Source of the DNA: Naegleria gruberi
Taxonomy: Eukaryota
Length of the DNA stretch: 64,000 nucleotides
Reading direction: 5' to 3' (one strand)
NCBI GenBank assembly: GCA_000004985.1
Contig: GG738859.1
The number at the start of each line of letters is the position of its first letter. The first letter of the stretch is position 1. Below are positions 45,333 to 64,000 of the stretch, in pieces. A program made the translations under genes and the position numbers. The notes beneath the pieces are model-generated. The model was not told the DNA's origin and did no database searches. It saw only the letters and a program-made list of their open reading frames with translations.

Positions 45333-47972
45333 ATGAAAGAAACGAAACAAGTCATTCCAATTGTCAAATCAAAAGATGAACGAGAGGTCGATGAGGAAAA
45401 TCCAAAGGATGACACATCAAGTGATCTTTTTATTCAAGAAGATAAGAGAAAGATTGCATTCTTTGGTTCAATTAAAATGTGGCTAATTTTGATAATTTCC
45501 ATAATTGTATTGTTGACAGTTTTTATTCTGTCAGCGATTTGGTTGAGCAGTTTTATGCCATCAGTGGTTTCGTATAGTTCAGAATTGAGAGATTTTGAGT
45601 TTAACAATATTATTTCATTTGTAGAACAGTTGATTAGAGAAGTGTCAATGTCAAGTGATAATGCCAAACATTTAATGTTGAAATCACTTGATTTTTCGAA
45701 TAGAGATCAGATAGAAGTGTTGATTTATCAGTTTTATAAGCAACAAAAGGGTTACATGAAAGGAGTTGTTGTCACTTGCAATATTGGTGACAATGAAGGA
45801 AGGTAAATACTTTACAACAGTTTTAATCTTTACATTCTTAAAGACAATATGGAGTTATGGACTGGGGAGGCAAGCAAGCCTTATTCAACATCACCACAAA
45901 AGATCAACAACTTTATTATTGTAATAATTTTGATGAATTGATTATTGTAATAGAAGTTCAATTCCTGACATTCAATTAGGATTTTTTGACTTGACTGTTA
46001 TGATTACAACAGGAAATACTCATCCAAACAAAGCAACCATGTCTCTAAGTTTCATAGATGCATCACAACCACAGTATACTTTCATTACCATGTATAATTC
46101 AATGCCATTAACTCAACCAGATCCAAAAGGAAACAAATTTAAATATTATTTGGCCATTGACATGTCTGCTGAGACTATTTCTCAATATTTAGCGAATGCA
46201 ACTTCTAAAATAAGTGGTTCTAAGAGTTTTATTATTGAAATGGCAACTCAATATATGATTGCAAGTAAGTTTAACAATGAACAAGGTAAAAAGTTTACAA
46301 TAATTGAAAGATGACAATTCCAATGCAAGAGTTGCAGTTGTTAATTCAGATGGATCTGTCACAAGACAAACCTATCTCAAAATTGATAATGATGAAAGAG
46401 TTTCGTCAATTGCTCGTATATTAGAAAAAAATTATGGAACTAGTTTGAATATTAAATGCAATACCAAGTATTTGATTACATCTGCAACTGATTACATTTC
46501 AGTTTATAGATTATGCACAGATACTGATGTTGATTGGTAAGTAACCTAAACGAGCTAGAAATGTAATAATTATTCGAAATAGGTTGTTTGTGTTGGCAGT
46601 TCCTCAATGGAATTATATTAGTTCAATTGTTATTGCTGTAATTTGTGCTACTCTTGGTGCCACATTAATTGTCACAACAGGTGTAGCCATTTCCATCTTC
46701 ATTTCAGTCAGATTAGTGAAACCATTTTACAACTTGATTGATTTATTCGAAAGTGTTTCTCACATGGATTTGGATAATTTAATAATTCATGATTCCAAAT
46801 TTACAGAAGTTAAACATTTACAAACTCATTTCAAAACCATGACAGATAGAATCAAACTTTACAGAGCTTTCATTCCATCACATTTACTTTCTCAATTAGA
46901 TCAAGGAGGTGGCAACAATGAAAACAATGGAGGTCAAGATTCAAAGAAGAAACACGATGCTTCAATGGATTCCTCTCATAAATCCTCAAAAGAATCTGCT
47001 TGGAGTAGAAGTCATGCAGGAGATAGTTCAAGTTCACATCGAAGATATTCGAATGATTTGGATATTTTCTCACTTCATTTGGATCGAAAGAAATTATCCA
47101 TTGTTGCAATTCATATTGAAGGGTTGAATAGATTATTCTCTGAAATATCAGCAGGAGACTGTGTTGATTTATTGAAAGATTTCTTTGATCATTTGGGATT
47201 AGTTTGTAGAACAAGTAATGGTTATCTGGGAAATTTTGAAAATGATTTAATTTCAATTTCATTCAATGCAAGTTCAAATCAATCGAAACATTCAGAAAAA
47301 GCAGCTTCAGCATGTGTTCAATTAATGGAAAAGTTGAACACAACCAAATCAAAGAAATGGCCAAATCAATTGAAAAAGAAACCTCACTTGATTGAAATTG
47401 TTAAATTTAGATTTGCAATTTGTGTTCAAGAATCATTGTGTGGAAATTTGGGATCTAATGATTTTAAGAATTTCACAGTTATTTCAAGTGCCAAATTCAA
47501 TTTGGAATGCATGTTGGATGTTGCATCAAAATTGAATTTGAATATTGTATTATCTGATAGAGTATTTGCAAATTTAGAAGAACATTATCAAATGAGATAT
47601 GTTTATACGAAAGAATTAATTCCAGATTCACATTATTCATCTCCATTTATTCAACACAAAGAAAATGAAAGAGCACCAATTGAACCAACACATATTTATG
47701 AATTGGGTGAAAGCTTACATATTGGAATGGATGGTAAGTTTACAATATTTAATAATATTTCGAAATATTTACAATTTAACAATTTATTAGAATGGATGTA
47801 TGAATTACAAGAAAAGGAAAAGAAAGCAAAATGGACCAAATACAATCAAGCTTGCAAACTCTTCTTCTCAAATCAATTCGAAGAAGCTAAGGAACTCTTC
47901 AAAGAATATCATGAACTCAACAATGATGTGGCGGCTGAATTACTAATGCACAAATGTTCCAAAATTAATTAA
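45333..47972 (+). CDS. receptor-type cyclase-homology-domain protein, copy 1 (5 exons; carries a -1 frameshift in exon 2, so a possible pseudogene or assembly error)
   Basis: Exons 45333..45802, 45844..46264, 46311..46536, 46583..47733, 47791..47972, all with GTAAAT/GTAAGT donors. Topology: short cytoplasmic N-terminus, TM1 (IAFFGSIKMWLILIISIIVLLTVFILSAIWLSSF), ~330-aa extracellular domain, TM2 (LFVLAVPQWNYISSIVIAVICATLGATLIVTTGVAISIFISV), Ser-rich linker, CHD (SIVAIHIEGLNRLF..GYLGNFENDLISISF..FRFAICVQESLCGNLG..FNLECMLD). Relative to copy 2, one C is missing near 45937 (GAATTGATTATTGT vs GAACTTGATTATTGT), giving an in-frame TAG at 45977..45979. The last intron (57 nt) is in-frame and stop-free, so the track ORF reads through it. 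Confidence 0.6.
47031..47727. repeat. near-100% identical inverted-repeat tract (partner at ~53073..53763): putative gene-conversion segment within the diverged paralog pair
   Basis: Direct reading: the reverse complements of 53701..53760 and 53101..53160 are base-for-base identical to the corresponding copy-1 sequence, including synonymous sites. The encoded 231 aa (SSHRRYSNDLD..ELGESLH) are identical. Outside the tract the copies differ (extracellular domain ~70-75% aa identity). The left boundary has a small indel (copy 1 has extra GGAGATAGTTCA). Confidence 0.8.
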
Positions 47973-48303: not shown

Positions 48304-51300
48304 TTATTTTTGGAGAAATATTCTAAAATTGCTAAGAACTTCTTCTAAGTTACCTCCAGTTTCATTAATCATTTTACTACCCTTCGCATAATTCTGCTCG
48401 ATATCCAATCCATACATGTATATTACTCCTAACTTTTGCTTTGCATCTATATCACTATCGTCAAATTCAAGAGCCCTTGTATACCACACAAAAGCTTCCT
48501 TGAAATCATTCTTAAATGCATGAAAATCTGCAAGAATCGTCATGCTGTCTTTAACTTGCATTTCTATTGCCTTATTGATCCAATACAAGAATAGTGCGTC
48601 GTCTTGATCCACTCCCTCGCCATGCATATATGAAATAGCAACATTTTTCATTGAATTACTGTCCCCAATAAGTGCAGCTTGTAAGCTGTATTGGAAAGAT
48701 TTTTGAAGATTATCTGAGTCGAAATAAATGGTTGATAATTTTGTCATGCAATATATATTTCCCAATTCGGCTCCTTTGGTGTAGTAAGGGATGGGATCAC
48801 CATTCGAATTGAAATAGTAATAATCTCCTAGTTTCATAAATGCTTCATCGTTGTTGTGAAGAGAAGATCTTTCGAATAATGAAAGAGCTTTTTTCAAGTC
48901 TTTCTCATATCCGATTTCAACACTTCCAATTTCGTACAATTCGCCCAAGTAGTTGAGAGCAGGACCATAGTCGTATCTAGCTGCTAGCTCTATTAATTTT
49001 AGTCCAAACCTTTCGTTTGATAAAACCTTGGACTTTCCAAAATCGAAGCAAGCTTTCGGATCAAAAAGAATTTTGTTCCTTACTTGCTTCACCTCTTGTA
49101 GTACAGTAATAAGAGTCTTTCCAAAAAGTAAATTAATTCCCAATTCTAATTGTAAGCCTTCTTGAGCAGCACAAAACAATTCTTGTTTCAAAAACTCTTC
49201 ATAATTTGGCATTTCAGAGTTGATCTCATAAACAGAACAGGAAAAGTCAATTTTCAGTTTCTTTGGTACCAATTCTCGATTAGTAAATTGTGTTTCATCA
49301 AACCCAGATATAAACAGAACATGCTTGTTGGATATCACGGATTCAATTGCAGTTTTCATTCCGCTTTCTGATAAATTTTGAATGGTTGTTTTAAGATTGA
49401 ACAAAACTAGCTCTTTTGATTGGATCGTAAAAAATTCGTACATTAAATTGAAAAACTCTGCAAGAAACTGAGCTCTATGTTTGATAGTAAGTGCTCTCCC
49501 AATAAATTCGCTTATTTTCTTCATGATTTTTTCTCCAAAATTATTGGAAGTATTTGCAAGTAATAGGTCGAAAATCTCCAATCTAATACTTTCCAAAATG
49601 TGATCCTTATCATTTTGTACAGATATGCGTATATTGTGCTCTTTCAGTTCCAGAGTTTTAGTTATGCAATCAACCATTTGTTGATATACTTCAGAAGCAA
49701 GAGAAGAGCTTTTTTTCAAGGCACCTCTTTTCGATTGATGGTAGTGAGGATATCCAGGGAAATTATCTATAAATCTCAAATCCTCTTCTCTAGTTGCTAC
49801 AGAAATTACACCATTCTTTGGAGAGCCCACTGCATGATTGACAATTTCACAAAGTCTTCTCATTTCCTTATTCCAATTTTCATCATTTGTCCAGTTAGAT
49901 CCATGATGGTCTACGTAGGCATGTCTTACTCCAACCCAATCTTTAAAAACATCTGGTTCAAATGGACGAATATCTTCTTGTTTGATTTCTTCATCAAACA
50001 AGCCAGGTTCAAATATTTTGACATTATCTACAATTAAATCATCCCAGCATACAAAGAATTGATCTCCGTCCAAATCTGATCCTGATATCATATTTGGTAC
50101 AGGTCTTTTACCTTTTGATGAAAAAACAATAACATCACACAAGTGAGATAATTTGGGATAGTAAACTGCTTTGATTTTTCTCAAGTCACCTCTATGAAGA
50201 CAAGGTTCTTTTGTCAATACAATTTCTTTCTGTAGAACTTGTTTGTGACTTGGATTTTTAAATGAAGAAATCTGAACAAATACCTCTCCTTCATTGAGGA
50301 CTTCATAAGGATCTACCACTCCATATAATCTTCTTGAATTTGAGAATGGAATTTTCAATGATGTTATGAGACTCTTGTATGGACCAGCCAGAAATGCAAA
50401 TCCTTTGTTTTTTGTGGTTGAGAGAACATTAAGGGAAATCAAATTATTATCTTTCATATATTGCCTCGCAATAACTTCAGTATCTTCATGAACGTATTTG
50501 TCTAAAGAGTTTTGAACGTGAGCAGATGCCATCTCTAATACTCTCTTTCTCACTTCTCCGTTAGAATCACATCCACTCAGTAAGTGCATGATTGTAGAGT
50601 TGACTCTTGTTAATTCGCATGGACTGGAATGACCAACTATTTGAAGAGTGCTAAAACTTTGGTCAACTTTTTCATTAGTTTTACATTTGACCATTGATTC
50701 TCTCAGTACAATGTGAACTCTATACTTTTCAAATGTTTCAGTATTAACAACAAGCATTCCTTTTGCTCCTCTAAATCTAATTTGAAACGCTGAAGGAATG
50801 TAAGAGCTATCAGAAAACAAATCAAAACCACGTTGCTCATCATATCCAATTTCATCTTCCTCTTGATCAGTTTTTATCAAAACTCTATTTTCGGCATTCA
50901 AGATGTGTTTGTAAACTTTCTTAGCCATGTCTGGAGAAATAAATCCACAACCATCTGTAAAGTTGAAACCATCTCTTTCAATATCTGGAATTACTGTGAA
51001 ATATTGAATGATTTCTGTTGGGATCACTGGTGTATTATAAAGAGCCAATCTAATTCTCTGCTTTAATATATTTTTCGAATCATACAGAGTTGGATTAAGC
51101 TCTTTAGGAATTGCCCATTCTTTAATTTGTTCAACAGTTGAGAGCTTTCTTGTTGGATCCTGCGTATTTGCTAATTGAGGGCAACAATACACATACTTAT
51201 ATGAATGCATTCCACTAGTATTTTGGCAAAGAATATTAAATTGATATTTTCCAAATTTGAAAGGTAATGGATTGATATTGTCTTTAAATGCTTTCTTCCA

Positions 51301-52071
51301 AGTTATCAACTCATTTCTAAATCTTGATTGATGTTTCAATTTCTTGATGTACTCCTTATCAAACACATCATTAATAATATCAGTATCCTGTTTCAGAATT
51401 TTCATTTTGGTCAACAGGAAGAAAAAATCGATTTCTTCAAAGCTAAATGGATTGAGAATAGAACCATTCATTTGTTCATCTCGAACCATTCTTTGAGATT
51501 TCAATCCCATTCTCGAGAATATAAACGATACATTCAATATGCAATCACCTCCAAACTCTTGTCTAAATCTTCCAATAACAAAATTGTCTTTTGGTGAGCT
51601 TTTAAATATAACACATAGCTCTGCTTTCTCAGCAGCAATAAAAGAATAGAACGTAATTGACCTCATTCTACTCAATTTCAATCCTGCCCTTCCATCAGAA
51701 TACGATTTATCATCTTTTCCTTCCAAAAACCAGTTGTTGATACTTTCCAAACCTTCGGGGTAGGTAACTATTACCTTCTTACTAACTTTCTTCATTAATT
51801 CGAATCTCTGATCGAAGGACATACCTGAATAACCTTCCCCTCTGAGATGACTCAATCTGGCAAGACAAATACCAGCATCATGTTCATTCCGAATCAATGG
51901 AAGTGTTTTATTTCGAGAAAGATGATAACAGTAGAAGAGATTATCTATTAATTGCTCGGTGGACGAATTTGCTGTTGTTTGATTGTTAGAATCATTCTGT
52001 TTGAAGGGCATTTCATGGTTTTTGTTAATGGAGAAAAGTTTGGGAAGGTTTGCAGTGAATTGTGTGAACAT
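48304..52071 (-). CDS. cellular RNA-dependent RNA polymerase (RDR/QDE-1 family) fused to C-terminal Sel1-like repeats, 1255 aa, single exon
   Basis: ATG 52071..52069, TAA 48306..48304. RdRP catalytic region ..PCLHRGDLRKIKAVYYPKLSHLCDVIVFSSKGKRPVPNMISGSDLDGDQFFVCWDD (DxDGD motif; cf. plant RDR ..VVFPQKG.RPHPNECSGSDLDGD.YFVSWD) at ~50050..50095. The last ~230 aa are Sel1/TPR-like repeats (..AISYMHGEGVDQDDALFLYWINKAIEMQ..; ..LGVIYMYGLDIEQNYAKG..). Confidence 0.85.
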   Translation of the reverse strand: MFTQFTANLPKLFSINKNHEMPFKQNDSNNQTTANSSTEQLIDNLFYCYHLSRNKTLPLIRNEHDAGICLARLSHLRGEGYSGMSFDQRFELMKKVSKKVIVTYPEGLESINNWFLEGKDDKSYSDGRAGLKLSRMRSITFYSFIAAEKAELCVIFKSSPKDNFVIGRFRQEFGGDCILNVSFIFSRMGLKSQRMVRDEQMNGSILNPFSFEEIDFFFLLTKMKILKQDTDIINDVFDKEYIKKLKHQSRFRNELITWKKAFKDNINPLPFKFGKYQFNILCQNTSGMHSYKYVYCCPQLANTQDPTRKLSTVEQIKEWAIPKELNPTLYDSKNILKQRIRLALYNTPVIPTEIIQYFTVIPDIERDGFNFTDGCGFISPDMAKKVYKHILNAENRVLIKTDQEEDEIGYDEQRGFDLFSDSSYIPSAFQIRFRGAKGMLVVNTETFEKYRVHIVLRESMVKCKTNEKVDQSFSTLQIVGHSSPCELTRVNSTIMHLLSGCDSNGEVRKRVLEMASAHVQNSLDKYVHEDTEVIARQYMKDNNLISLNVLSTTKNKGFAFLAGPYKSLITSLKIPFSNSRRLYGVVDPYEVLNEGEVFVQISSFKNPSHKQVLQKEIVLTKEPCLHRGDLRKIKAVYYPKLSHLCDVIVFSSKGKRPVPNMISGSDLDGDQFFVCWDDLIVDNVKIFEPGLFDEEIKQEDIRPFEPDVFKDWVGVRHAYVDHHGSNWTNDENWNKEMRRLCEIVNHAVGSPKNGVISVATREEDLRFIDNFPGYPHYHQSKRGALKKSSSLASEVYQQMVDCITKTLELKEHNIRISVQNDKDHILESIRLEIFDLLLANTSNNFGEKIMKKISEFIGRALTIKHRAQFLAEFFNLMYEFFTIQSKELVLFNLKTTIQNLSESGMKTAIESVISNKHVLFISGFDETQFTNRELVPKKLKIDFSCSVYEINSEMPNYEEFLKQELFCAAQEGLQLELGINLLFGKTLITVLQEVKQVRNKILFDPKACFDFGKSKVLSNERFGLKLIELAARYDYGPALNYLGELYEIGSVEIGYEKDLKKALSLFERSSLHNNDEAFMKLGDYYYFNSNGDPIPYYTKGAELGNIYCMTKLSTIYFDSDNLQKSFQYSLQAALIGDSNSMKNVAISYMHGEGVDQDDALFLYWINKAIEMQVKDSMTILADFHAFKNDFKEAFVWYTRALEFDDSDIDAKQKLGVIYMYGLDIEQNYAKGSKMINETGGNLEEVLSNFRIFLQK

Positions 52072-52806: not shown

Positions 52807-55490
52807 CTACAATTCACTAATAGGTGTTGTAGTTGAACATTTTTTAATCATCAATTCAGCTGCCACATCATTGTTGAGTTCATGAAATTCCTGGAATAAT
52901 TCTCTAGCTTCTTCGAATTGATTTGAGAAGAAGAGTTTGCAAGCTTGATTGTATTTGGTCCATTTTGCTTTCTTTTCCTTTTCTTGTAATTCATACATCC
53001 ATTCTAATAAATAGTTAAATTATAAATATTTCGACAAATTATTAAATATTGTAAACTTACCATCCATTCCAACATGTAAGCTTTCACCCAATTCATAAAT
53101 ATGTGTTGGTTCAATTGGTGCTCTTTCATTTTCTTTGTGTTGAATAAATGGAGATGAATAATGTGAATCTGGAATTAATTCTTTCGTATAAACATATCTC
53201 ATTTGATAATGTTCTTCTAAATTTGCAAATACTCTATCAGATAATACAATATTCAAATTCAATTTTGATGCAACATCCAACATGCATTCCAAATTGAATT
53301 TGGCACTTGAAATAACTGTGAAATTCTTAAAATCATTCGATCCTAAATTTCCACACAATGATTCTTGAACACAAATTGCAAATCTAAATTTAACAATTTC
53401 AATCAAGTGAGGTTTCTTTTTCAATTGATTTGGCCATTTCTTTGATTTGGTTGTGTTCAACTTTTCCATTAATTGAACACATGCTGAAGCTGCTTTTTCT
53501 GAATGTTTTGATTGATTTGAACTTGCATTGAATGAAATTGAAATTAAATCATTTTCAAAATTTCCCAGATAACCATTACTTGTTCTACAAACTAATCCCA
53601 AATGATCAAAGAAATCTTTCAATAAATCAACACAGTCTCCTGCTGATATTTCAGAGAATAATCTATTCAATCCTTCAATATGAATTGCAACAATGGATAA
53701 TTTCTTTCGATCCAAATGAAGTGAGAAAATATCCAAATCATTCGAATATCTTCGATGTGAACTAGAGGCATGACTTCTACTCAAGCTAGATTGTTTGGAG
53801 TCTAATCTCGAAGATCTCTGAGAGGATTTATGAGAGGAAGCCATAGAAATGGAATCATTTTCATGAGCTTTCTTTTTGGCGTCAACATGATCTCCTCCTT
53901 GATCTAATTGAGAAAGTAAATGTGATGGAATGAATGCTCTGTAAAGTTTGATTCTATCTGTCATGGTTTTGAAATGATTTTGTAAATGTTTCACTTCTGT
54001 AAATTTGGAATCATTAATTACTAAATTATCCAAATCCATATGAGAAACACTTTCGAATAAATCAATCAAGTTGTAAAATGGTTTCACTAGTTTGACTGAA
54101 ATAATGACAGATGTTATAACACCTGCAGAAATTATAATACATGCGCCTAGAGTAGCACAAATTACAGCAATAACAATTGAACTAATATAATTCCATTGAG
54201 GAACTGCCAACACAAACAACCTATTTCGAATAATTATTATAGAGTTCGAAATTGATTTGCTAACTTACCAATCAACATCAGTATCTGTGCATAATCTATA
54301 AACTGAAATGTAATCAGTTGCAGATGTAATTAATGATTTGTTTCCACATCCAATAGTATCCAATTCTGTTCCCAATTCCGAAGCCAATACCTTGGCGATT
54401 GACGAAACTCTTTCATCATTATCAATTTTGAGATAGGTTTGTCTTGTGACAGATCCATCTGAATTAACAACTGCAACTCTTGCATTAGAATTGTCATCTT
54501 TCAATTATTGTAAACTTTTTACCTTTTTCATTGTTAAACTTACTTGCAATAATGTATTGAGTTGCCATTTCAATAATAAAACTCTTTGAACCACTCAATT
54601 TCAACGTGACCTGTGCCAAATATTGAGAAATAGTCTCAGCAGACAAATCTGTTCCTAAGTAATATTTAAATTTGTTTCCTTTCGAATCTGGTTGAGGTAA
54701 CGCAATAGAATTAACCATTGTAATGAAAGTATACTGTGGTTGTGATGCATCTATGAAACTATTAGTGATGGTTGGTTTTCCTGGATGTGCATTTCCAGCA
54801 TTAATCAAAATTGTCAAATCAAAAAATCCTAATTGAATATCTGGAGTTGAACTTCTATTACAATAATCAAGTTCATCAAAGTTATTACAATAATAAAGTT
54901 GTTGATCTTTGGTGGTGATGTTGAATAATGTAGGTTTTCCTCCCCAGTCCATAATTCCATATTGTCTTAAGAAATTAATGAAATATTGTAAAGATTAAAA
55001 CTTTTGTAAAGTACTTACGTACTTACCTTCCTTCATTGTCACCAATGTGATTTGTAACAACTAAACCTTTAAGATAGGTCCACTGTTGTTTCAAAAACTG
55101 ATAAATCAACACTTCTATCTGATCTCTATTCGAAAAGTCAAGTGTTTTCATCATTAAATGTTTACCAGTTTCACTTGTCATTTTTACTTCTCTAATTGTT
55201 TGTTTGACAAATGCAATAATATTATCAAATTCAAAATCTCTTAGTTCCTTGCTATATTCAACAACTGAAGGAATGAAACTACTCAACCAAATTGCTGACA
55301 GGATAAAAACTGTCAATAATACAATTACAGAAATAATTAGAATCAACCACATTTTAATTGAACCAAAGAATGCAATCTTTCTTGCGTCTTGTTGAAAATT
55401 ATCGCTTGAAGTATCTTCGATAGGTTGAGTATTATCTTCTGTTGCATCGTGCTGGGATCTGACAGGAATGACTTGTGTCGTTTCTTTCAT
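52807..55490 (-). CDS. receptor-type cyclase-homology-domain protein, copy 2 (intact paralog of the gene at 45333..47972, inverted), 5 exons, ~823 aa
   Basis: Exons complement(55027..55490), (54544..54965), (54269..54497), (53061..54220), (52807..53003). Introns of 61, 46, 48 and 57 nt at positions homologous to copy 1. Start chosen at the conserved AAAATCATAAAAAAATGAAAGAAACG context; an upstream in-frame ATG at 55544 is an alternative. Same 2-TM + extracellular domain + CHD architecture as copy 1. The C-terminal ~231 aa are identical to copy 1. Confidence 0.7.
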
Positions 55491-56994: not shown

Positions 56995-59230
56995 TTGAAA
57001 TATTCTTTTCTTAGTGAACTTTGCTTGCATCATAATTATTAAGGAATTGTTTCAAGTAGATGGAAAGTGTTCTAAAATTGCTGTAGATGGTAACATTCCG
57101 TTACAGCATAGTTAAATTCTAAGAAATGATTGAGATTTGTGATTTTTTCACAACTGTTATCTTTTAAACAATGGTTGTCATCCAACCCGATGTAAAAACT
57201 TTTTGAAATTGTTTCAAATGAGCTTGGAGTGGCTCAAACCCGTTGCTTCTTTTCAAAAAAGAGACTTATCCAACCTTTTGAATGAGACTGTATTATACTA
57301 TACAACAAACTGAAATTTATTCTTTCTTACTGAACTTTTCTTACTTCACAATTATTAAGGAATTTTTTCAAGTAGATGGAAAATGTTCCAAACTCGATGG
57401 AAATGGGGGCAGTCCTTTTCAGTATACTCAAAATCTCAATAATGATTGAGATTGGTCGATTTTTCACAACTGTAATCTTTAAAACAGTGGTTCCAACCCG
57501 CTTGTGGAACAAATTGAAATTGTTTCAAATGAACATGGTGGGGCTCAAACCCGTTGCTTCTTTTCGAAAGAGTGACGTAGCCAACCTTTTGACAAGACTG
57601 TATTATACTATACAACAAATTAAAATTTTTGCATTCTTACTGAACTTTTCTTACTTCACAATTATTAAGGAATTTTTTCAAGTAGATGGAAAATGTTCCA
57701 AAATCGATGGAAATGGTGGAAGTCCTTTAAAGTGTACTTAAATTCTCAATAATGATTGAGATCAGTCGATTTTTCACAACTGTAATCTTTAAAACAGTGG
57801 TTGTCATCCAACCCGATGTAACAACTACTATTAAATATTTCAAATGAGCTTGGAGTTGCTCAAACCCGTTGCTTCTTCTCAAAACAGTGACTTATTCAAC
57901 CTTTTGGTGGGGATTGTACAATAATGTTCAACAAATTAACATTGTCTTTTCTTAGTGAACTTTTCCTTCATCCTAATTATTAAGGAATTTTTACAAGTAG
58001 ATGGAAAATGTTCAAAACTGGCTATAGATGGTATAATTCCATTGAACTATACTCAAATTCTTAATAATGATTGAGATTGGTCGATTTTTCACAACTGTTA
58101 TCTTTGAAACAGTGATTTCATCCAACCACGCTTTAATAACAACTCCATGGACTGGCTCAAACCCGTTGTAAAATTAAATTAAACTTTCTCAAATGAGCTT
58201 GGCGTGGCTCAAACCCGGTGTGCTTACGTAAAATTCAATCGGAATACAATTTTAACTGGTATTCTGGCAAAGAGCCAACATTTTCACAATTAAACTTTCT
58301 TACTGAACTTTGAATATTTCACATAGTAAGGAATTTTTTCAAGTAGATGGAAAATGTTCCAAACTCGATAGAAATGGTACCAGTCCTTTACAGTATACTT
58401 AAATTCTCAAAAATGATTGAGATTTGCCATTTTTTCACAACTGTAATCTTTAAAACAGTGGTTGTAATCCAACCCGCTTGTGGAACAATTTGAAAAGGTT
58501 TCAAATGAGCTTGGAGTGGCTCAAACCCGTTACTTCTTTTCAAAAAAGTTCCTGATCGAGCTATGTGGTGAGACTGTATTATAGTATACAACAAATTAAA
58601 ATTTTTGCATTCTTATTGAACTATGAATATTTCACAATTATTAAGGAATTTTTACAAGTGGTTGGAAAATGTTCTAAACTGTATGTAGATGGTAACATTC
58701 CATTGGAATATACTCAACATCTTAATAATGACTGAGATTAGTCGATTTTTCACAACTGTAATCTTTAAAACAGTGGTTGTCATCCAACCCGATGTAAAAA
58801 CTTTTTGAAATTGTTTCAAATGAACATGGATTGGCTCAAACCCGTTGCTTCTTTTCAAAAAAGTTCCTGATCGAGCAATGTGACGAGGCTGGAATATACT
58901 ATTCAACAAAGTAAATTGTTTGCAATCTTACTGAACTTTGAATATTTCAAAATTATTAAGGAATTTTTACAAGGGGATGGAAAATGTTCTAAACTGTATG
59001 TAGATGGTAACATTCCATTGGAGTATACTCAAATTCTTAATAATGATTGAGATCAGTCGATTTTTCACAAATGTTATCTTTAAAACAGTGGTTGTCGTCA
59101 AACCCGATGTAAAAACTACTTGAAATTGTTTCAAATGAACATGGTGTGGCTCAAACCCGTTGTAAAATTAAATTACACTTTCTCAAATGAGCTTGGTGTG
59201 GCTCAAACCCGGTGTGCTTATGTAAAGTTC
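56995..59230. repeat. subtelomeric satellite: ~310-345-bp unit, ~7 tandem copies, in two higher-order blocks
   Basis: The anchor CAAGTAGATGGAAAATGTTC(C/T)AAA recurs at ~57053, 57370, 57680, 57997, 58340, 58658 (variant) and 58969 (variant). Each unit also contains TTTCACAACTGTAATCTTTAAAACAGTGGTT and TTTCAAATGA(G/A)C(T/A)TGG.GTGGCTCAAACCCGTTGC. Two blocks (to ~58260 and to ~59230) each end with a duplicated GGCTCAAACCCG(T/G)TGT..AAATT motif. Track ORFs inside (57327.., 57376.., 57436.., 58388.., 58652..) are repeat artefacts. Confidence 0.75.
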
Positions 59231-60953: not shown

Positions 60954-62838
60954 NNNNNNNNNNNNNNNNNNNNNNNNNNNNNNNNNNNNNNNNNNNNNNN
61001 NNNNNNNNNNNNNNNNNNNNNNNNNNNNNNNNNNNNNNNNNNNNNNNNNNNNNNNNNNNNNNNNNNNNNNNNNNNNNNNNNNNNNNNNNNNNNNNNNNNN
61101 NNNNNNNNNNNNNNNNNNNNNNNNNNNNNNNNNNNNNNNNNNNNNNNNNNNNNNNNNNNNNNNNNNNNNNNNNNNNNNNNNNNNNNNNNNNNNNNNNNNN
61201 NNNNNNNNNNNNNNNNNNNNNNNNNNNNNNNNNNNNNNNNNNNNNNNNNNNNNNNNNNNNNNNNNNNNNNNNNNNNNNNNNNNNNNNNNNNNNNNNNNNN
61301 NNNNNNNNNNNNNNNNNNNNNNNNNNNNNNNNNNNNNNNNNNNNNNNNNNNNNNNNNNNNNNNNNNNNNNNNNNNNNNNNNNNNNNNNNNNNNNNNNNNN
61401 NNNNNNNNNNNNNNNNNNNNNNNNNNNNNNNNNNNNNNNNNNNNNNNNNNNNNNNNNNNNNNNNNNNNNNNNNNNNNNNNNNNNNNNNNNNNNNNNNNNN
61501 NNNNNNNNNNNNNNNNNNNNNNNNNNNNNNNNNNNNNNNNNNNNNNNNNNNNNNNNNNNNNNNNNNNNNNNNNNNNNNNNNNNNNNNNNNNNNNNNNNNN
61601 NNNNNNNNNNNNNNNNNNNNNNNNNNNNNNNNNNNNNNNNNNNNNNNNNNNNNNNNNNNNNNNNNNNNNNNNNNNNNNNNNNNNNNNNNNNNNNNNNNNN
61701 NNNNNNNNNNNNNNNNNNNNNNNNNNNNNNNNNNNNNNNNNNNNNNNNNNNNNNNNNNNNNNNNNNNNNNNNNNNNNNNNNNNNNNNNNNNNNNNNNNNN
61801 NNNNNNNNNNNNNNNNNNNNNNNNNNNNNNNNNNNNNNNNNNNNNNNNNNNNNNNNNNNNNNNNNNNNNNNNNNNNNNNNNNNNNNNNNNNNNNNNNNNN
61901 NNNNNNNNNNNNNNNNNNNNNNNNNNNNNNNNNNNNNNNNNNNNNNNNNNNNNNNNNNNNNNNNNNNNNNNNNNNNNNNNNNNNNNNNNNNNNNNNNNNN
62001 NNNNNNNNNNNNNNNNNNNNNNNNNNNNNNNNNNNNNNNNNNNNNNNNNNNNNNNNNNNNNNNNNNNNNNNNNNNNNNNNNNNNNNNNNNNNNNNNNNNN
62101 NNNNNNNNNNNNNNNNNNNNNNNNNNNNNNNNNNNNNNNNNNNNNNNNNNNNNNNNNNNNNNNNNNNNNNNNNNNNNNNNNNNNNNNNNNNNNNNNNNNN
62201 NNNNNNNNNNNNNNNNNNNNNNNNNNNNNNNNNNNNNNNNNNNNNNNNNNNNNNNNNNNNNNNNNNNNNNNNNNNNNNNNNNNNNNNNNNNNNNNNNNNN
62301 NNNNNNNNNNNNNNNNNNNNNNNNNNNNNNNNNNNNNNNNNNNNNNNNNNNNNNNNNNNNNNNNNNNNNNNNNNNNNNNNNNNNNNNNNNNNNNNNNNNN
62401 NNNNNNNNNNNNNNNNNNNNNNNNNNNNNNNNNNNNNNNNNNNNNNNNNNNNNNNNNNNNNNNNNNNNNNNNNNNNNNNNNNNNNNNNNNNNNNNNNNNN
62501 NNNNNNNNNNNNNNNNNNNNNNNNNNNNNNNNNNNNNNNNNNNNNNNNNNNNNNNNNNNNNNNNNNNNNNNNNNNNNNNNNNNNNNNNNNNNNNNNNNNN
62601 NNNNNNNNNNNNNNNNNNNNNNNNNNNNNNNNNNNNNNNNNNNNNNNNNNNNNNNNNNNNNNNNNNNNNNNNNNNNNNNNNNNNNNNNNNNNNNNNNNNN
62701 NNNNNNNNNNNNNNNNNNNNNNNNNNNNNNNNNNNNNNNNNNNNNNNNNNNNNNNNNNNNNNNNNNNNNNNNNNNNNNNNNNNNNNNNNNNNNNNNNNNN
62801 NNNNNNNNNNNNNNNNNNNNNNNNNNNNNNNNNNNNNN
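60954..62838. other. assembly gap (1,885 N)
   Basis: Uninterrupted run of n. The 641-668-aa all-X ORFs in the track across it are artefacts. Confidence 0.99.
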
Positions 62839-63649
62839 ATTGTGAACACAATGGTATCAATAGTTATATGATTCATGATAGTTTAAAATTGAGTTGGTCA
62901 TCTAAGGATAGGTCATTAAGGTTTGAATGAATTGATATGAAATTCAATACCAATTATTGAAATACCATGACTAACTGATCTATATATGATGCTATAATTG
63001 AAAGATTTTAAAATTAATATGATTTGATTATCTTGATATTCATTATTCCCATGATTACACTCCTGACATGTTGAATGATATCAAATTGTCATGAAACTGA
63101 TACAGTAGTGTTCATTCACCTTTTGTAAGGTACTGTATCAATTTCATAATGATCTGTAAAGTAGATGTCATTGTCACATCCCTGTAGGTATCAAGTGGAT
63201 CTGCCATGTACCATGTATGATATGGATGAATATCAAAATGATATTACTGTATTTCATTATCATGTGTAGATGTATTGGAAGTGAATTGAAGTGGTATAGA
63301 TTTCTATCTTCAATGTTAGTATAGGTCAGTTGACAAGTTGAATAGCAAATATCCTGAAATGATACCAAAGTATTTGAAATTGATATATATTGTTATTAAC
63401 ATGATTTATAAGGTGATATATTGATTTGAAATGAATTTGAAATGTTTTCATTGATATTTTAATTGTCTAATCTATTATATGAAATTAACTTATATAAGAC
63501 ATGATAATGATGTAATATTATGTTATATTATGATTATATATTCAATTTGGAGTATATTGATATATAATATATTGATTTATAATGAGTATTTATTGAGATA
63601 ATTAATTAAGATGAATAAAAGTCAAAATGTTGGGTCTGACCTTAGTCGT

Positions 63650-64000
63650 GGGTTTGGGTTTGGGTTTGGGTTTGGGTTTGGGTTTGGGTTTGGGTTTGGG
63701 TTTGGGTTTGGGTTTGGGTTTGGGTTTGGGTTTGGGTTTGGGTTTGGGTTTGGGTTTGGGTTTGGGTTTGGGTTTGGGTTTGGGTTTGGGTTTGGGTTTG
63801 GGTTTGGGTTTGGGTTTGGGTTTGGGTTTGGGTTTGGGTTTGGGTTTGGGTTTGGGTTTGGGTTTGGGTTTGGGTTTGGGTTTGGGTTTGGGTTTGGGTT
63901 TGGGTTTGGGTTTGGGTTTGGGTTTGGGTTTGGGTTTGGGTTTGGGTTTGGGTTTGGGTTTGGGTTTGGGTTTGGGTTCGGGTTTGGGTTTGGGTTTGGA
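63650..64000 (+). repeat. telomeric repeat (GGGTTT)n, ~58 units, running to the window end (chromosome terminus; G-rich strand 5'->3' toward the end)
   Basis: Perfect hexamer array from 63650. One variant unit GGGTTC at ~63974..63979. Preceded by AT-rich unique sequence and the satellite. Confidence 0.9.

What the first reader, a model, noticed from the sequence alone, without database searches (positions are those of the whole stretch)
45844..46264. Single-base deletion frameshifts exon 2 of copy 1
Alignment with copy 2 shows one missing C near 45937 (copy 1 GAATTGATTATTGT; copy 2 GAACTTGATTATTGT). The copy-1 frame then hits TAG at 45977..45979, while the original frame resumes intact downstream (..FFDLTVMITTGNTHPNK..). 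Everything else in copy 1 (splice sites, TM segments, cyclase-homology domain) is intact. This is either a very young pseudogene kept similar by gene conversion or a sequencing/assembly error in a homopolymer-poor context.
Basis: seen in the sequence. Interest (0 to 1): 0.5.

Follow-up and report, generated by a model that had tools for sequence, protein, structure and literature searches.

The report
One-base gap breaks Naegleria receptor gene
One of two neighbouring, mirror-image copies of a Naegleria gruberi membrane-receptor gene lacks a single C in exon 2 of the reference genome; every close relative has that base, so this is either a newly disabled gene or a sequencing slip, and it is ordinary either way.

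Summary
The window is the telomeric end of a Naegleria gruberi NEG-M scaffold. It holds two convergent paralogs of a receptor with a dCache-like ectodomain and a cyclase-homology domain. Copy 1 (+ strand, gene NAEGRDRAFT_65846) has a 421-nt exon 2; copy 2 has 422 nt. A C is missing between 45937 and 45938, and the frame then stops at TAG 45977-45979.

The gap is derived and private to this assembly. The C is present in copy 2, in the N. lovaniensis ortholog, and in a metagenome contig that is 98.8% identical to copy 1 over exons 1-2. The same-genome paralog NAEGRDRAFT_69157 (protein only) reads through the site.

Copy 1 shows no other decay:
- splice sites are intact and all other coding indels are multiples of 3;
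- dN/dS is 0.2-0.3;
- it has only 2 private amino-acid changes.

Gene conversion from copy 2 is real and recent (47028-47733 is 99.2% identical).

The RefSeq protein avoids the frameshift with a 151-nt intron. That intron removes 37 conserved codons: three core beta-strands and two invariant cysteines. I read this as an annotation work-around.

Without reads I cannot separate a just-born null allele (about 0.45) from a draft consensus error (about 0.40). Interest is low.

The parts
45333..45802 (+). Copy 1 (NAEGRDRAFT_65846) exon 1: start codon, cytoplasmic N-terminus, TM1 and the start of the ectodomain. It ends in phase 2 (..GGA AG|gt).
   Evidence: 100% identical to P0002 / XP_002679045.1.
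45803..45843 (+). Copy 1 canonical intron 1 (41 nt, GTAAAT..TTAAAG). The position and phase match copy 2 (61 nt) and N. lovaniensis (130 nt).
45844..46264 (+). Copy 1 exon 2: 421 nt instead of 422, and therefore frameshifted.
   Evidence: The environmental ortholog L002 has a 422-nt exon 2.
45937..45938 (+). Site of the missing C (GATGAA^TTGATT). The C is present in copy 2, N. lovaniensis and metagenome contig L002; the protein of NAEGRDRAFT_69157 reads through the site.
45977..45979 (+). Premature TAG in the shifted frame, 13 codons after the deletion.
45952..45953 (+). Alternative acceptor AG (tgtaatAG|AAGTTC) used by the RefSeq model. With donor 45803 it makes a 151-nt intron, restores the frame and removes 37 conserved codons.
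   Evidence: The removed segment is conserved in all 13 relatives that contain it.
46311..46536 (+). Copy 1 exon 3. Its 5' part (46322-46410) is identical to copy 2 but differs from the environmental ortholog, so it is a recent conversion tract.
46583..47733 (+). Copy 1 exon 4: TM2, HAMP-like/coiled-coil helix, low-complexity linker and cyclase-homology domain. The stretch 47028-47733 is 99.2% identical to copy 2.
47791..47972 (+). Copy 1 exon 5 and stop codon (C-terminal TPR-like helices).
48304..52071 (-). RNA-dependent RNA polymerase gene with C-terminal Sel1 repeats (1255-aa ORF), lying between the two convergent copies.
52807..55490 (-). Copy 2: intact paralog of 823 aa. Exons are 55490-55027, 54965-54544, 54497-54269, 54220-53061 and 53003-52807. 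It carries the C at 54871 on the + strand (G) within 54860-54874.
   Evidence: The nearest database protein is NAEGRDRAFT_63468, 97.8% identical, on another scaffold.
60954..62838 (.). Scaffold gap (1885 N), which shows that the window comes from a gapped draft assembly.
63649..63999 (+). Telomere repeat (TTTGGG)n, 58.5 copies, with the G-rich strand running 3' to the end. This places the gene pair 8-18 kb from a chromosome end.
   Evidence: TTTGGG is reported as the candidate N. gruberi telomere in PMC3622300.

Best explanation
Copy 1 is the gene NAEGRDRAFT_65846 of Naegleria gruberi NEG-M. It is one of a convergent, subtelomeric pair of receptor genes. The encoded protein has TM1, a dCache-like ectodomain, TM2, a coiled coil and a degenerate class III cyclase-homology domain. 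In the reference sequence a single C has been lost from codon Leu-189 (CTT) in exon 2. Translation from the canonical mRNA would stop 13 codons later, within the first PAS-like module of the sensor and before TM2 and the cyclase-homology domain, so no functional receptor could be made. The most likely reading is that the deletion is real but extremely recent: a just-born unprocessed pseudogene, or a null allele that may be heterozygous in this polyploid laboratory clone. It sits in a gene that was under purifying selection until then, and copy 2 repeatedly overwrites parts of it by gene conversion. Shown: the lesion itself, its derived and private status, the absence of any other decay, and the conversion tracts. 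Inferred: that the base is truly missing from the DNA, and that the product is non-functional.
For: The gap and the premature stop are confirmed. The deposited RefSeq protein P0002 / XP_002679045.1 is 100% identical to copy 1 but jumps from exon 1 to ..RSSIPD. This shows the deposited assembly itself carries the frameshift. The ancestral C is present in copy 2, in N. lovaniensis and in contig L002, which is 98.8% identical to copy 1 over exons 1-2 with pS 0.035. The protein of paralog NAEGRDRAFT_69157 reads FDELDYCNRSSIPD through the site. The lesion therefore arose within a very short branch. That fits the lack of any second lesion, the fact that all other coding indels are multiples of 3, dN/dS of 0.19 upstream and 0.32 downstream, only 2 private amino-acid changes, and retention of all family-invariant residues of the N-terminal 469 aa, including those downstream of the gap. 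The setting favours gene turnover: it is subtelomeric, belongs to a multi-copy family and has an intact neighbour that could cover the function. The missing base is an isolated C rather than part of a homopolymer, which is not the typical context for a base-calling indel. About 35 kb of the window lies in uninterrupted ORFs of at least 250 codons, so the local sequence is not riddled with indel errors.
Against: Nothing but the single base distinguishes copy 1 from a working gene, which is also exactly what a consensus error would look like. The assembly is a gapped draft, with 1885 N only 15 kb away. No independent NEG-M reads or transcripts could be reached: exact look-ups for frameshift-type ORFs found nothing and the one metagenome DNA scan found nothing. 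My rough prior for an indel error in a 2.45-kb coding sequence of an 8x Sanger draft (own knowledge, about 1-8%) is at least as large as my prior for pseudogenisation within a branch of pS at most 0.035.
Confidence: 0.45

Rival explanations
1. The missing C is a consensus or base-calling error of the draft NEG-M assembly. In that case the real gene has a 422-nt exon 2 and encodes an intact 816-aa receptor.
For: Inserting one C restores a complete open frame with all splice sites intact. Copy 1 has only 2 private amino-acid changes and keeps all family-invariant residues checked (the N-terminal 469 aa). dN/dS against the environmental ortholog is 0.12. The ortholog in an independent data set is intact. 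The window is a gapped draft scaffold near a chromosome end, where coverage is usually poorer. One apparent indel in roughly 38 kb of coding sequence fits a normal draft error rate.
Against: The context is not a homopolymer or a GC-rich compression. The rest of the window shows long uninterrupted ORFs. The sequence around the site differs enough from copy 2 (about 90% identity) that cross-assembly with copy 2 is unlikely. Misplaced reads from the intact paralog 69157 would add the C, not remove it.
Confidence: 0.4
2. The deletion is real, but the gene is still expressed through the alternative 3' splice site at 45952-45953 (a 151-nt intron 1), as in RefSeq XP_002679045.1. This would give a receptor that lacks 37 ectodomain residues.
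For: This is the smallest GT..AG solution that restores the frame. It is the deposited gene model. The model of a second paralog, P0001 / NAEGRDRAFT_63468, skips the same codons. Introns longer than 100 nt occur at this position in N. lovaniensis (130 nt).
Against: The skipped segment is coding and conserved in all 13 other family members, with both cysteines invariant. It is 28/36 identical between N. gruberi copy 2 and N. lovaniensis, while the neighbouring intron is unalignable. In the confident AF2 model of the ortholog (pLDDT about 90) it forms strands 162-168, 171-177 and 182-186 of the membrane-distal PAS-like module, plus Cys187 and Cys196. The canonical short intron remains intact in copy 1. 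The same pipeline modelled the segment as exon in the intact paralog 69157. It also chose different intron-2 acceptors for almost identical DNA in P0001 and P0002, so these models do not look transcript-based.
Confidence: 0.1
3. Programmed recoding (ribosomal frameshifting or transcript slippage) restores the frame at or near the deletion.
For: Only the fact that the downstream frame is perfectly preserved.
Against: There is no X XXY YYZ slippery heptamer in the zero frame between 45845 and 45979 and no homopolymer run for transcriptional slippage. Close relatives simply have the extra base, so no conserved recoding signal exists.
Confidence: 0.02

Closest known systems
Unprocessed (duplicated) pseudogene, or nascent null allele, in a subtelomeric gene family evolving by interlocus gene conversion
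   Same: It is an intron-containing paralog next to an intact copy. It has a single frame-disrupting lesion. It lies 8-18 kb from a telomere. Its identity to the neighbour is mosaic, 78% to 99%, with significant conversion tracts.
   Different: It shows no relaxed-constraint signature, no second lesion and only 2 private amino-acid changes. If it is a pseudogene, it is at the very first step. The lesion has not been verified in reads.
Draft-assembly frameshift hidden by a gene-model work-around (an artificial intron placed over an indel)
   Same: The RefSeq/JGI model XP_002679045.1 places a 151-nt intron exactly over the indel and the premature stop. It drops conserved codons that the same pipeline keeps in paralog XP_002675834.1.
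   Different: Whether the indel is an error is unknown. A second model (XP_002681430.1) skips the same codons for reasons I could not examine, because no DNA was accessible.
Class III (receptor-type) adenylyl/guanylyl cyclases, e.g. P. aeruginosa CyaB (3r5g), Cya2 (2w01), Dictyostelium ACG-like receptor cyclases
   Same: A single C-terminal cyclase-homology domain has the class III fold (TM-score 0.74-0.79 to 3r5g; family-profile E-value 1.4e-9). It follows a two-TM sensor module.
   Different: Pfam Guanylate_cyc scores below its threshold (13.9 vs 21.9 bits; 1 of 18 members at E=0.0012). In the profile alignment the first metal Asp, the substrate Lys and the transition-state Arg are replaced (H, N/S, M), and only the second Asp and the Asn remain. 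This looks like a pseudo-cyclase or a non-canonical enzyme.
dCache (double Cache) ligand-binding domains of bacterial chemoreceptors, e.g. PctD (7prq)
   Same: The ectodomain has a long N-terminal helix followed by two PAS-like alpha/beta modules between two TM helices. Foldseek gives E about 3e-7 and TM-score 0.54-0.58 to 7prq.
   Different: There is no Pfam dCache hit. The organism is a eukaryote, and the distal module carries a conserved Cys pair.

Membership tests
Unprocessed pseudogene | Derived from a duplicated gene and retaining its exon-intron structure | tested here: met
   Five exons and four GT..AG introns sit at the same positions as in copy 2. Paralogs P0056 and P0001 exist elsewhere in the genome.
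Unprocessed pseudogene | Disabling lesion in the coding sequence as assembled | tested here: met
   A 1-nt gap at 45937/45938 leads to TAG at 45977-45979.
Unprocessed pseudogene | The lesion is present in the organism's DNA and is not an assembly artefact | not testable with these tools
   No NEG-M reads or second NEG-M assembly could be reached.
Unprocessed pseudogene | Relaxed selection or further decay (dN/dS near 1, extra lesions) | tested here: not met
   dN/dS is 0.32 downstream of the lesion and 0.12 against the environmental ortholog. Copy 1 has 2 private amino-acid changes and no other non-3n indel. This is compatible only with a very recent event.
Interlocus gene conversion between paralogs | Mosaic identity with tracts far longer than chance, including introns and silent sites | tested here: met
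   Identity is 99.2% over 47028-47733 against 77.8% in exon 1. The longest identical run is 264 nt, against a maximum of 115 in 5000 shuffles. pS is 0-0.04 in the tract against 0.5-0.6 in exon 1. In aa 666-725 copy 1 equals copy 2 (100%) but is 78% identical to its sister P0056.
Alternative-splice rescue (RefSeq model XP_002679045.1) | A GT..AG intron that restores the frame | tested here: met
   Donor 45803 with acceptor 45952-53 gives 151 nt and restores the frame. This matches P0002.
Alternative-splice rescue (RefSeq model XP_002679045.1) | The removed segment is dispensable or non-coding in relatives | tested here: not met
   The segment is present and conserved in 13 of 13 relatives, with two invariant Cys. 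It forms three core strands at pLDDT about 90. It is coding in N. lovaniensis DNA.
Alternative-splice rescue (RefSeq model XP_002679045.1) | Transcript evidence for the junction | not testable with these tools
   No RNA data are available. The locus tags and accessions appear in no held paper.
Class III nucleotidyl cyclase (PF00211) | Cyclase-homology fold | tested here: met
   Foldseek on the ortholog model hits 3r5g, 2w01 and 1wc0 with TM-score 0.7-0.79. The family profile hits 3r5g at E=1.4e-9.
Class III nucleotidyl cyclase (PF00211) | Passes the Pfam gathering threshold | tested here: not met
   13.9 bits against a cut-off of 21.9. Only 1 of 18 members matches at all, at E=0.0012.
Class III nucleotidyl cyclase (PF00211) | Canonical catalytic residues: two metal-binding Asp, substrate-specifying Lys plus Asp/Thr, transition-state Asn and Arg | tested here: not met
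   In the profile alignment to CyaB, Asp1 is replaced by His, Lys by Asn/Ser and Arg by Met. Asp2 (END) and Asn are kept. Residue roles come from established class III cyclase literature (own knowledge).
Class III nucleotidyl cyclase (PF00211) | cAMP or cGMP synthesis | not testable with these tools
   This needs an enzyme assay.
dCache sensor domain | Long helix plus two tandem PAS-like modules between two TM helices | tested here: met
   AF2 secondary structure and Foldseek hits to the PctD ligand-binding domain 7prq and to 9a69. This was tested on the N. lovaniensis ortholog, not on the window protein itself.
Programmed ribosomal frameshift | Slippery site at the shift position, conserved in relatives | tested here: not met
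   There is no slippery heptamer. Relatives carry the extra base instead.

The most novel reading that the evidence does not exclude
The 37-codon stretch at the start of exon 2 might be a genuinely regulated alternative region in N. gruberi. Both deposited models NAEGRDRAFT_65846 and NAEGRDRAFT_63468 splice it out. On this reading the frameshifted copy 1 would be tolerated because it is expressed only as the short isoform: a receptor with a truncated distal sensor module that could act as a decoy or as a constitutive partner of the intact neighbour.
Probability: 0.05. Interest if true: 0.4.

Novelty: new member of a known kind. Interest (0 to 1): 0.15.

Why it matters
The main value is for curation.
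- NAEGRDRAFT_65846 / XP_002679045.1, and probably XP_002681430.1, are mis-modelled. Each lacks 37 conserved residues of the sensor domain.
- The intact neighbour (copy 2) appears to have no protein record.
- Comparative counts of Naegleria "cyclases" inherit these errors.

If the deletion is real, the locus catches a subtelomeric receptor gene at the first step of pseudogenisation, while its neighbour is still overwriting it by gene conversion. That would be a tidy but unsurprising example of birth-and-death evolution combined with concerted evolution.

The family itself is a more interesting lead than the frameshift. It pairs a dCache-like ectodomain with a catalytically degenerate cyclase-homology domain and is essentially invisible to Pfam.

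Tried and rejected
- Exact-protein look-ups to reach N. gruberi DNA from other assemblies all failed. These covered the RdRP ORF, P0001, P0002, P0056 and three copy-1 ORFs that would exist only with the frameshift.
I modelled the N. lovaniensis ortholog instead.
- A metagenome scan with a pattern matching both the C and no-C versions found nothing.
- Literature searches for the locus tags, protein accessions and the metagenome run accessions found nothing. The N. gruberi genome paper is not held.

**Readings considered and rejected**
- *Ciliate genetic code.* This was prompted by the G/T-rich telomere and the AT-richness. It is rejected because long standard-code ORFs are present and the best hits are Naegleria. 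The shifted frame would in any case hit TGA soon after.
- *Other frame-restoring introns.* Thirteen GT..AG combinations keep an open frame, but every one removes at least 37 conserved codons.
- *Copy 1 decaying for a long time.* An initial relative-rate test suggested this (37 vs 17 unique changes, p=0.006). However, 33 of the 36 changes are shared with the intact sister paralog NAEGRDRAFT_69157, so they belong to the lineage and not to the pseudogene.
- *Programmed frameshifting.* No slippery site is present.
Full report
**What the window is**

The sequence uses the standard genetic code. It has many long ORFs, about 33% GC and introns of 41-61 nt. It ends in 58.5 copies of TTTGGG, with the G-rich strand running to the 3' end. 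An 1885-nt run of N lies at 60954-62838.

Protein searches place it in Naegleria gruberi. The protein XP_002679045.1 / NAEGRDRAFT_65846 (P0002, on a 530,355-nt scaffold) is 100% identical to copy 1. TTTGGG is the candidate telomere repeat reported for N. gruberi (PMC3622300). The window is therefore the telomeric end of a scaffold of the gapped NEG-M draft assembly. By my own recollection that assembly is Sanger whole-genome shotgun at about 8x.

**The observation**

Two paralogs lie tail to tail.
- Copy 1 is on the + strand, with exons 45333-45802, 45844-46264, 46311-46536, 46583-47733 and 47791-47972.
- Copy 2 is on the - strand, with exons 55490-55027, 54965-54544, 54497-54269, 54220-53061 and 53003-52807. 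It encodes an intact 823-aa protein.
- An RdRP/Sel1 gene at 48304-52071 (-) lies between them.

Exon 2 is 421 nt in copy 1 and 422 nt in copy 2. The difference is one C missing between 45937 and 45938: GATGAA^TTGATT against GATGAACTTGATT at 54860-54874 (-). The copy-1 frame then reads ..FDELIIVIEVQFLTFN and stops at TAG 45977-45979. Inserting the C gives an uninterrupted 816-aa protein. Of 13 indel events between the two genes, this is the only coding one that is not a multiple of three.

**What the gene encodes**

Pfam barely detects the protein: Guanylate_cyc scores E=0.04, below threshold, and only 1 of 18 family members matches at all. A profile built from the family does hit class III cyclases in the PDB (CyaB 3r5g, E=1.4e-9).

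An AlphaFold model of the N. lovaniensis ortholog P0003 (53% identical to repaired copy 1, 52-54% to copy 2) is confident in both folded regions. It matches class III cyclase domains (TM-score 0.74-0.79) and dCache ligand-binding domains of chemoreceptors such as 7prq.

The architecture is TM1, a dCache-like ectodomain, TM2, a long helix, a low-complexity linker, a cyclase-homology domain, and TPR-like helices. In the profile alignment the first metal-binding Asp, the substrate Lys and the transition-state Arg are replaced. Only the second Asp and the Asn remain. The domain is therefore probably not a canonical cyclase. This holds for the whole family and does not come from the frameshift.

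**Is the skipped segment really coding?**

The deposited model P0002 joins ..GDNEGR directly to SSIPDIQ... It uses donor 45803 and the AG at 45952-45953, giving a 151-nt intron that hides both the deletion and the stop. An enumeration of GT..AG options shows this is the smallest frame-restoring solution. Every option removes at least 37 codons.

Several results show that those 37 codons (QYGxMDWGGK..FDELDYCN) are genuine coding sequence.
- They are present and conserved in all 13 other family members from N. lovaniensis, N. fowleri and N. gruberi, and both cysteines are invariant.
- In N. lovaniensis DNA, intron 1 sits at the same position and phase. Exon 2 begins with the same ACAATATGG..ATGGACTGGGGAGG, while the intron itself is unalignable.
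- In the structure model the segment forms three beta-strands of the membrane-distal PAS-like module, plus Cys187 and Cys196, at pLDDT about 90.
- The same annotation pipeline kept the segment in the intact paralog NAEGRDRAFT_69157.
- The pipeline also chose different intron-2 acceptors for nearly identical DNA in P0001 and P0002.

I therefore regard the RefSeq intron as an annotation work-around and not a biological rescue. I leave 10% for real use of that splice site.

**Polarity and age of the lesion**

An exhaustive phmmer search with the exon-2 peptide of copy 2 found P0019, a 142-aa ORF. It reproduces copy-1 exon 2 with the frame intact (..FDELDYCNRSSIPD..).

P0019 lies on a 1183-nt metagenome contig, L002 (ENA ERZ929261, run ERR1078381); L003 is the Logan assembly of the same run. 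L002 is 98.8% identical to copy 1 across exon 1, intron 1 and exon 2, against about 80-88% identity to copy 2. It reads GATGAACTTGATT and has a 422-nt exon 2. Between copy 1 and L002, exons 1-2 differ by 6 synonymous and 3 non-synonymous changes (pS 0.035, pN/pS 0.12).

The 90% cluster of P0019 also contains NAEGRDRAFT_69157 (P0056, 829 aa, on another scaffold). It is 92% identical to copy 1 and intact through the site.

The C is therefore ancestral. The gap is private to the NEG-M reference copy, and it arose, if real, within a branch shorter than pS 0.035.

**No decay elsewhere**
- Pairwise dN/dS between the copies is 0.28 overall, 0.19 upstream of the gap and 0.32 downstream.
- A first relative-rate test seemed to show faster evolution of copy 1 (37 vs 17 unique changes). 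However, 33 of 36 such changes are shared with the intact sister P0056. Copy 1 has only 2 private amino-acid changes.
- All family-invariant residues in the N-terminal 469 aa are retained, including those downstream of the gap.

**Gene conversion**

Identity between the copies ranges from 77.8% in exon 1 to 99.2% over 47028-47733. Introns are included in the high-identity stretches. The longest identical run is 264 nt, against a maximum of 115 in 5000 shuffles. pS falls from 0.5-0.6 to 0-0.04.

In residues 666-725 copy 1 equals copy 2 (100%) but is only 78% identical to its sister P0056, while P0001 resembles copy 2. Copy-2-type sequence therefore overwrote copy 1.

At 46322-46410 copy 1 equals copy 2, whereas the environmental ortholog carries P0056-like bases. 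Conversion thus operates on the time scale of strain divergence.

The frameshift site itself lies in a stretch of about 90% identity and is not in a fresh tract. Conversion explains why the 3' half looks pristine. It is not needed to explain the intact frame just downstream of the gap.

**Real mutation or error?**

Both readings predict exactly what is seen: one missing base and nothing else. The arguments are balanced.
- For an error: this is a gapped draft near a chromosome end, and one indel in about 38 kb of coding sequence is a normal draft error rate.
- For a real lesion: the context is not a homopolymer, the surrounding sequence quality appears good, the site is subtelomeric with a redundant neighbour, and the strain is a long-cultured and probably polyploid clone in which a null allele would be masked (the last point is my own knowledge).

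No independent NEG-M data could be reached. Recoding is excluded for practical purposes. I assign 0.45 to a real, just-born pseudogene or null allele, 0.40 to a consensus error, 0.10 to a real deletion rescued by the alternative acceptor, and about 0.02 to recoding, with the small remainder unassigned.

**Verdict**

The feature is an ordinary single-base frameshift in a duplicated subtelomeric gene of a draft genome. Its practical consequence is that at least one, and probably two, RefSeq models are wrong and that one intact gene (copy 2) seems to lack a protein record. Interest is low (0.15). It is a new member of a known kind.

Noticed in passing
window 52807-55490 (-): Copy 2 is an intact five-exon gene of 823 aa, but no identical protein turned up in the protein search. 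The nearest is NAEGRDRAFT_63468 (P0001), 97.8% identical, on a different 707,703-nt scaffold. Copy 2 may be unannotated in the N. gruberi gene catalogue.
   Followed up: partly
P0001 / XP_002681430.1 (NAEGRDRAFT_63468), not in the window: This deposited model skips exactly the same 37 codons as the frameshifted copy 1, although its relatives are intact there. The cause is unknown. It could be a gap, an indel, or the same deletion spread by conversion. Its DNA could not be retrieved.
   Followed up: partly
window 46264-46340; P0002: The RefSeq model of copy 1 also uses a different intron-2 acceptor (..caagAG|TT). That drops the conserved residues NDNSNAR(V), which the model of P0001 keeps for nearly identical DNA.
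   Followed up: partly
window 47028-47733 and 53061-53766; family alignments A2 and A4: The cyclase-homology domain of the whole family (Naegleria gruberi, lovaniensis, fowleri and metagenomic relatives) lacks the first metal Asp, the substrate Lys and the transition-state Arg, and is almost invisible to Pfam. Together with a dCache-like ectodomain, this suggests a Naegleria family of pseudo-cyclase receptors.
   Followed up: partly
L002 1-1183 (ENA ERZ929261, run ERR1078381) and L003: A metagenome contains a near-identical N. gruberi-like strain. Its copy-1 ortholog is a mosaic, copy-1-like in exons 1-2 and NAEGRDRAFT_69157-like in exon 3. The two assemblies of the same run differ at 11 positions, which suggests that several paralogs or alleles are present in the sample.
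   Followed up: partly
window 48304-52071 (-): A 1255-aa ORF combines an RNA-dependent RNA polymerase domain (PF05183, E=3.6e-81) with C-terminal Sel1 repeats. It sits exactly between the two inverted receptor genes.
   Followed up: no
window 57007-59162: A tandem array of 6.8 copies of a 315-nt unit (76% matches) has no open reading frame in any of the six frames. It is a non-coding subtelomeric satellite between copy 2 and the telomere.
   Followed up: partly
window 63649-63999 and 60954-62838: The window ends in (TTTGGG)58, which matches the candidate N. gruberi telomere repeat inferred bioinformatically in PMC3622300. A 1885-N scaffold gap lies 0.8 kb inside it.
   Followed up: yes
L001 10001-12555 (N. 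lovaniensis PYSW02000001.1): The single N. lovaniensis ortholog also lies about 15 kb from the end of its 1.08-Mb contig, next to another Guanylate_cyc gene and without an adjacent inverted partner or RdRP. The subtelomeric position is conserved; the inverted duplication appears specific to N. gruberi.
   Followed up: partly
window 55026-55011 (-): Intron 1 of copy 2 starts with a tandemly duplicated donor (GTAAGTACGTAAGTAC), whereas copy 1 has a single one. Together with a 12-nt difference near the acceptor, this makes copy 1's intron 1 (41 nt) the shortest in either gene.
   Followed up: no
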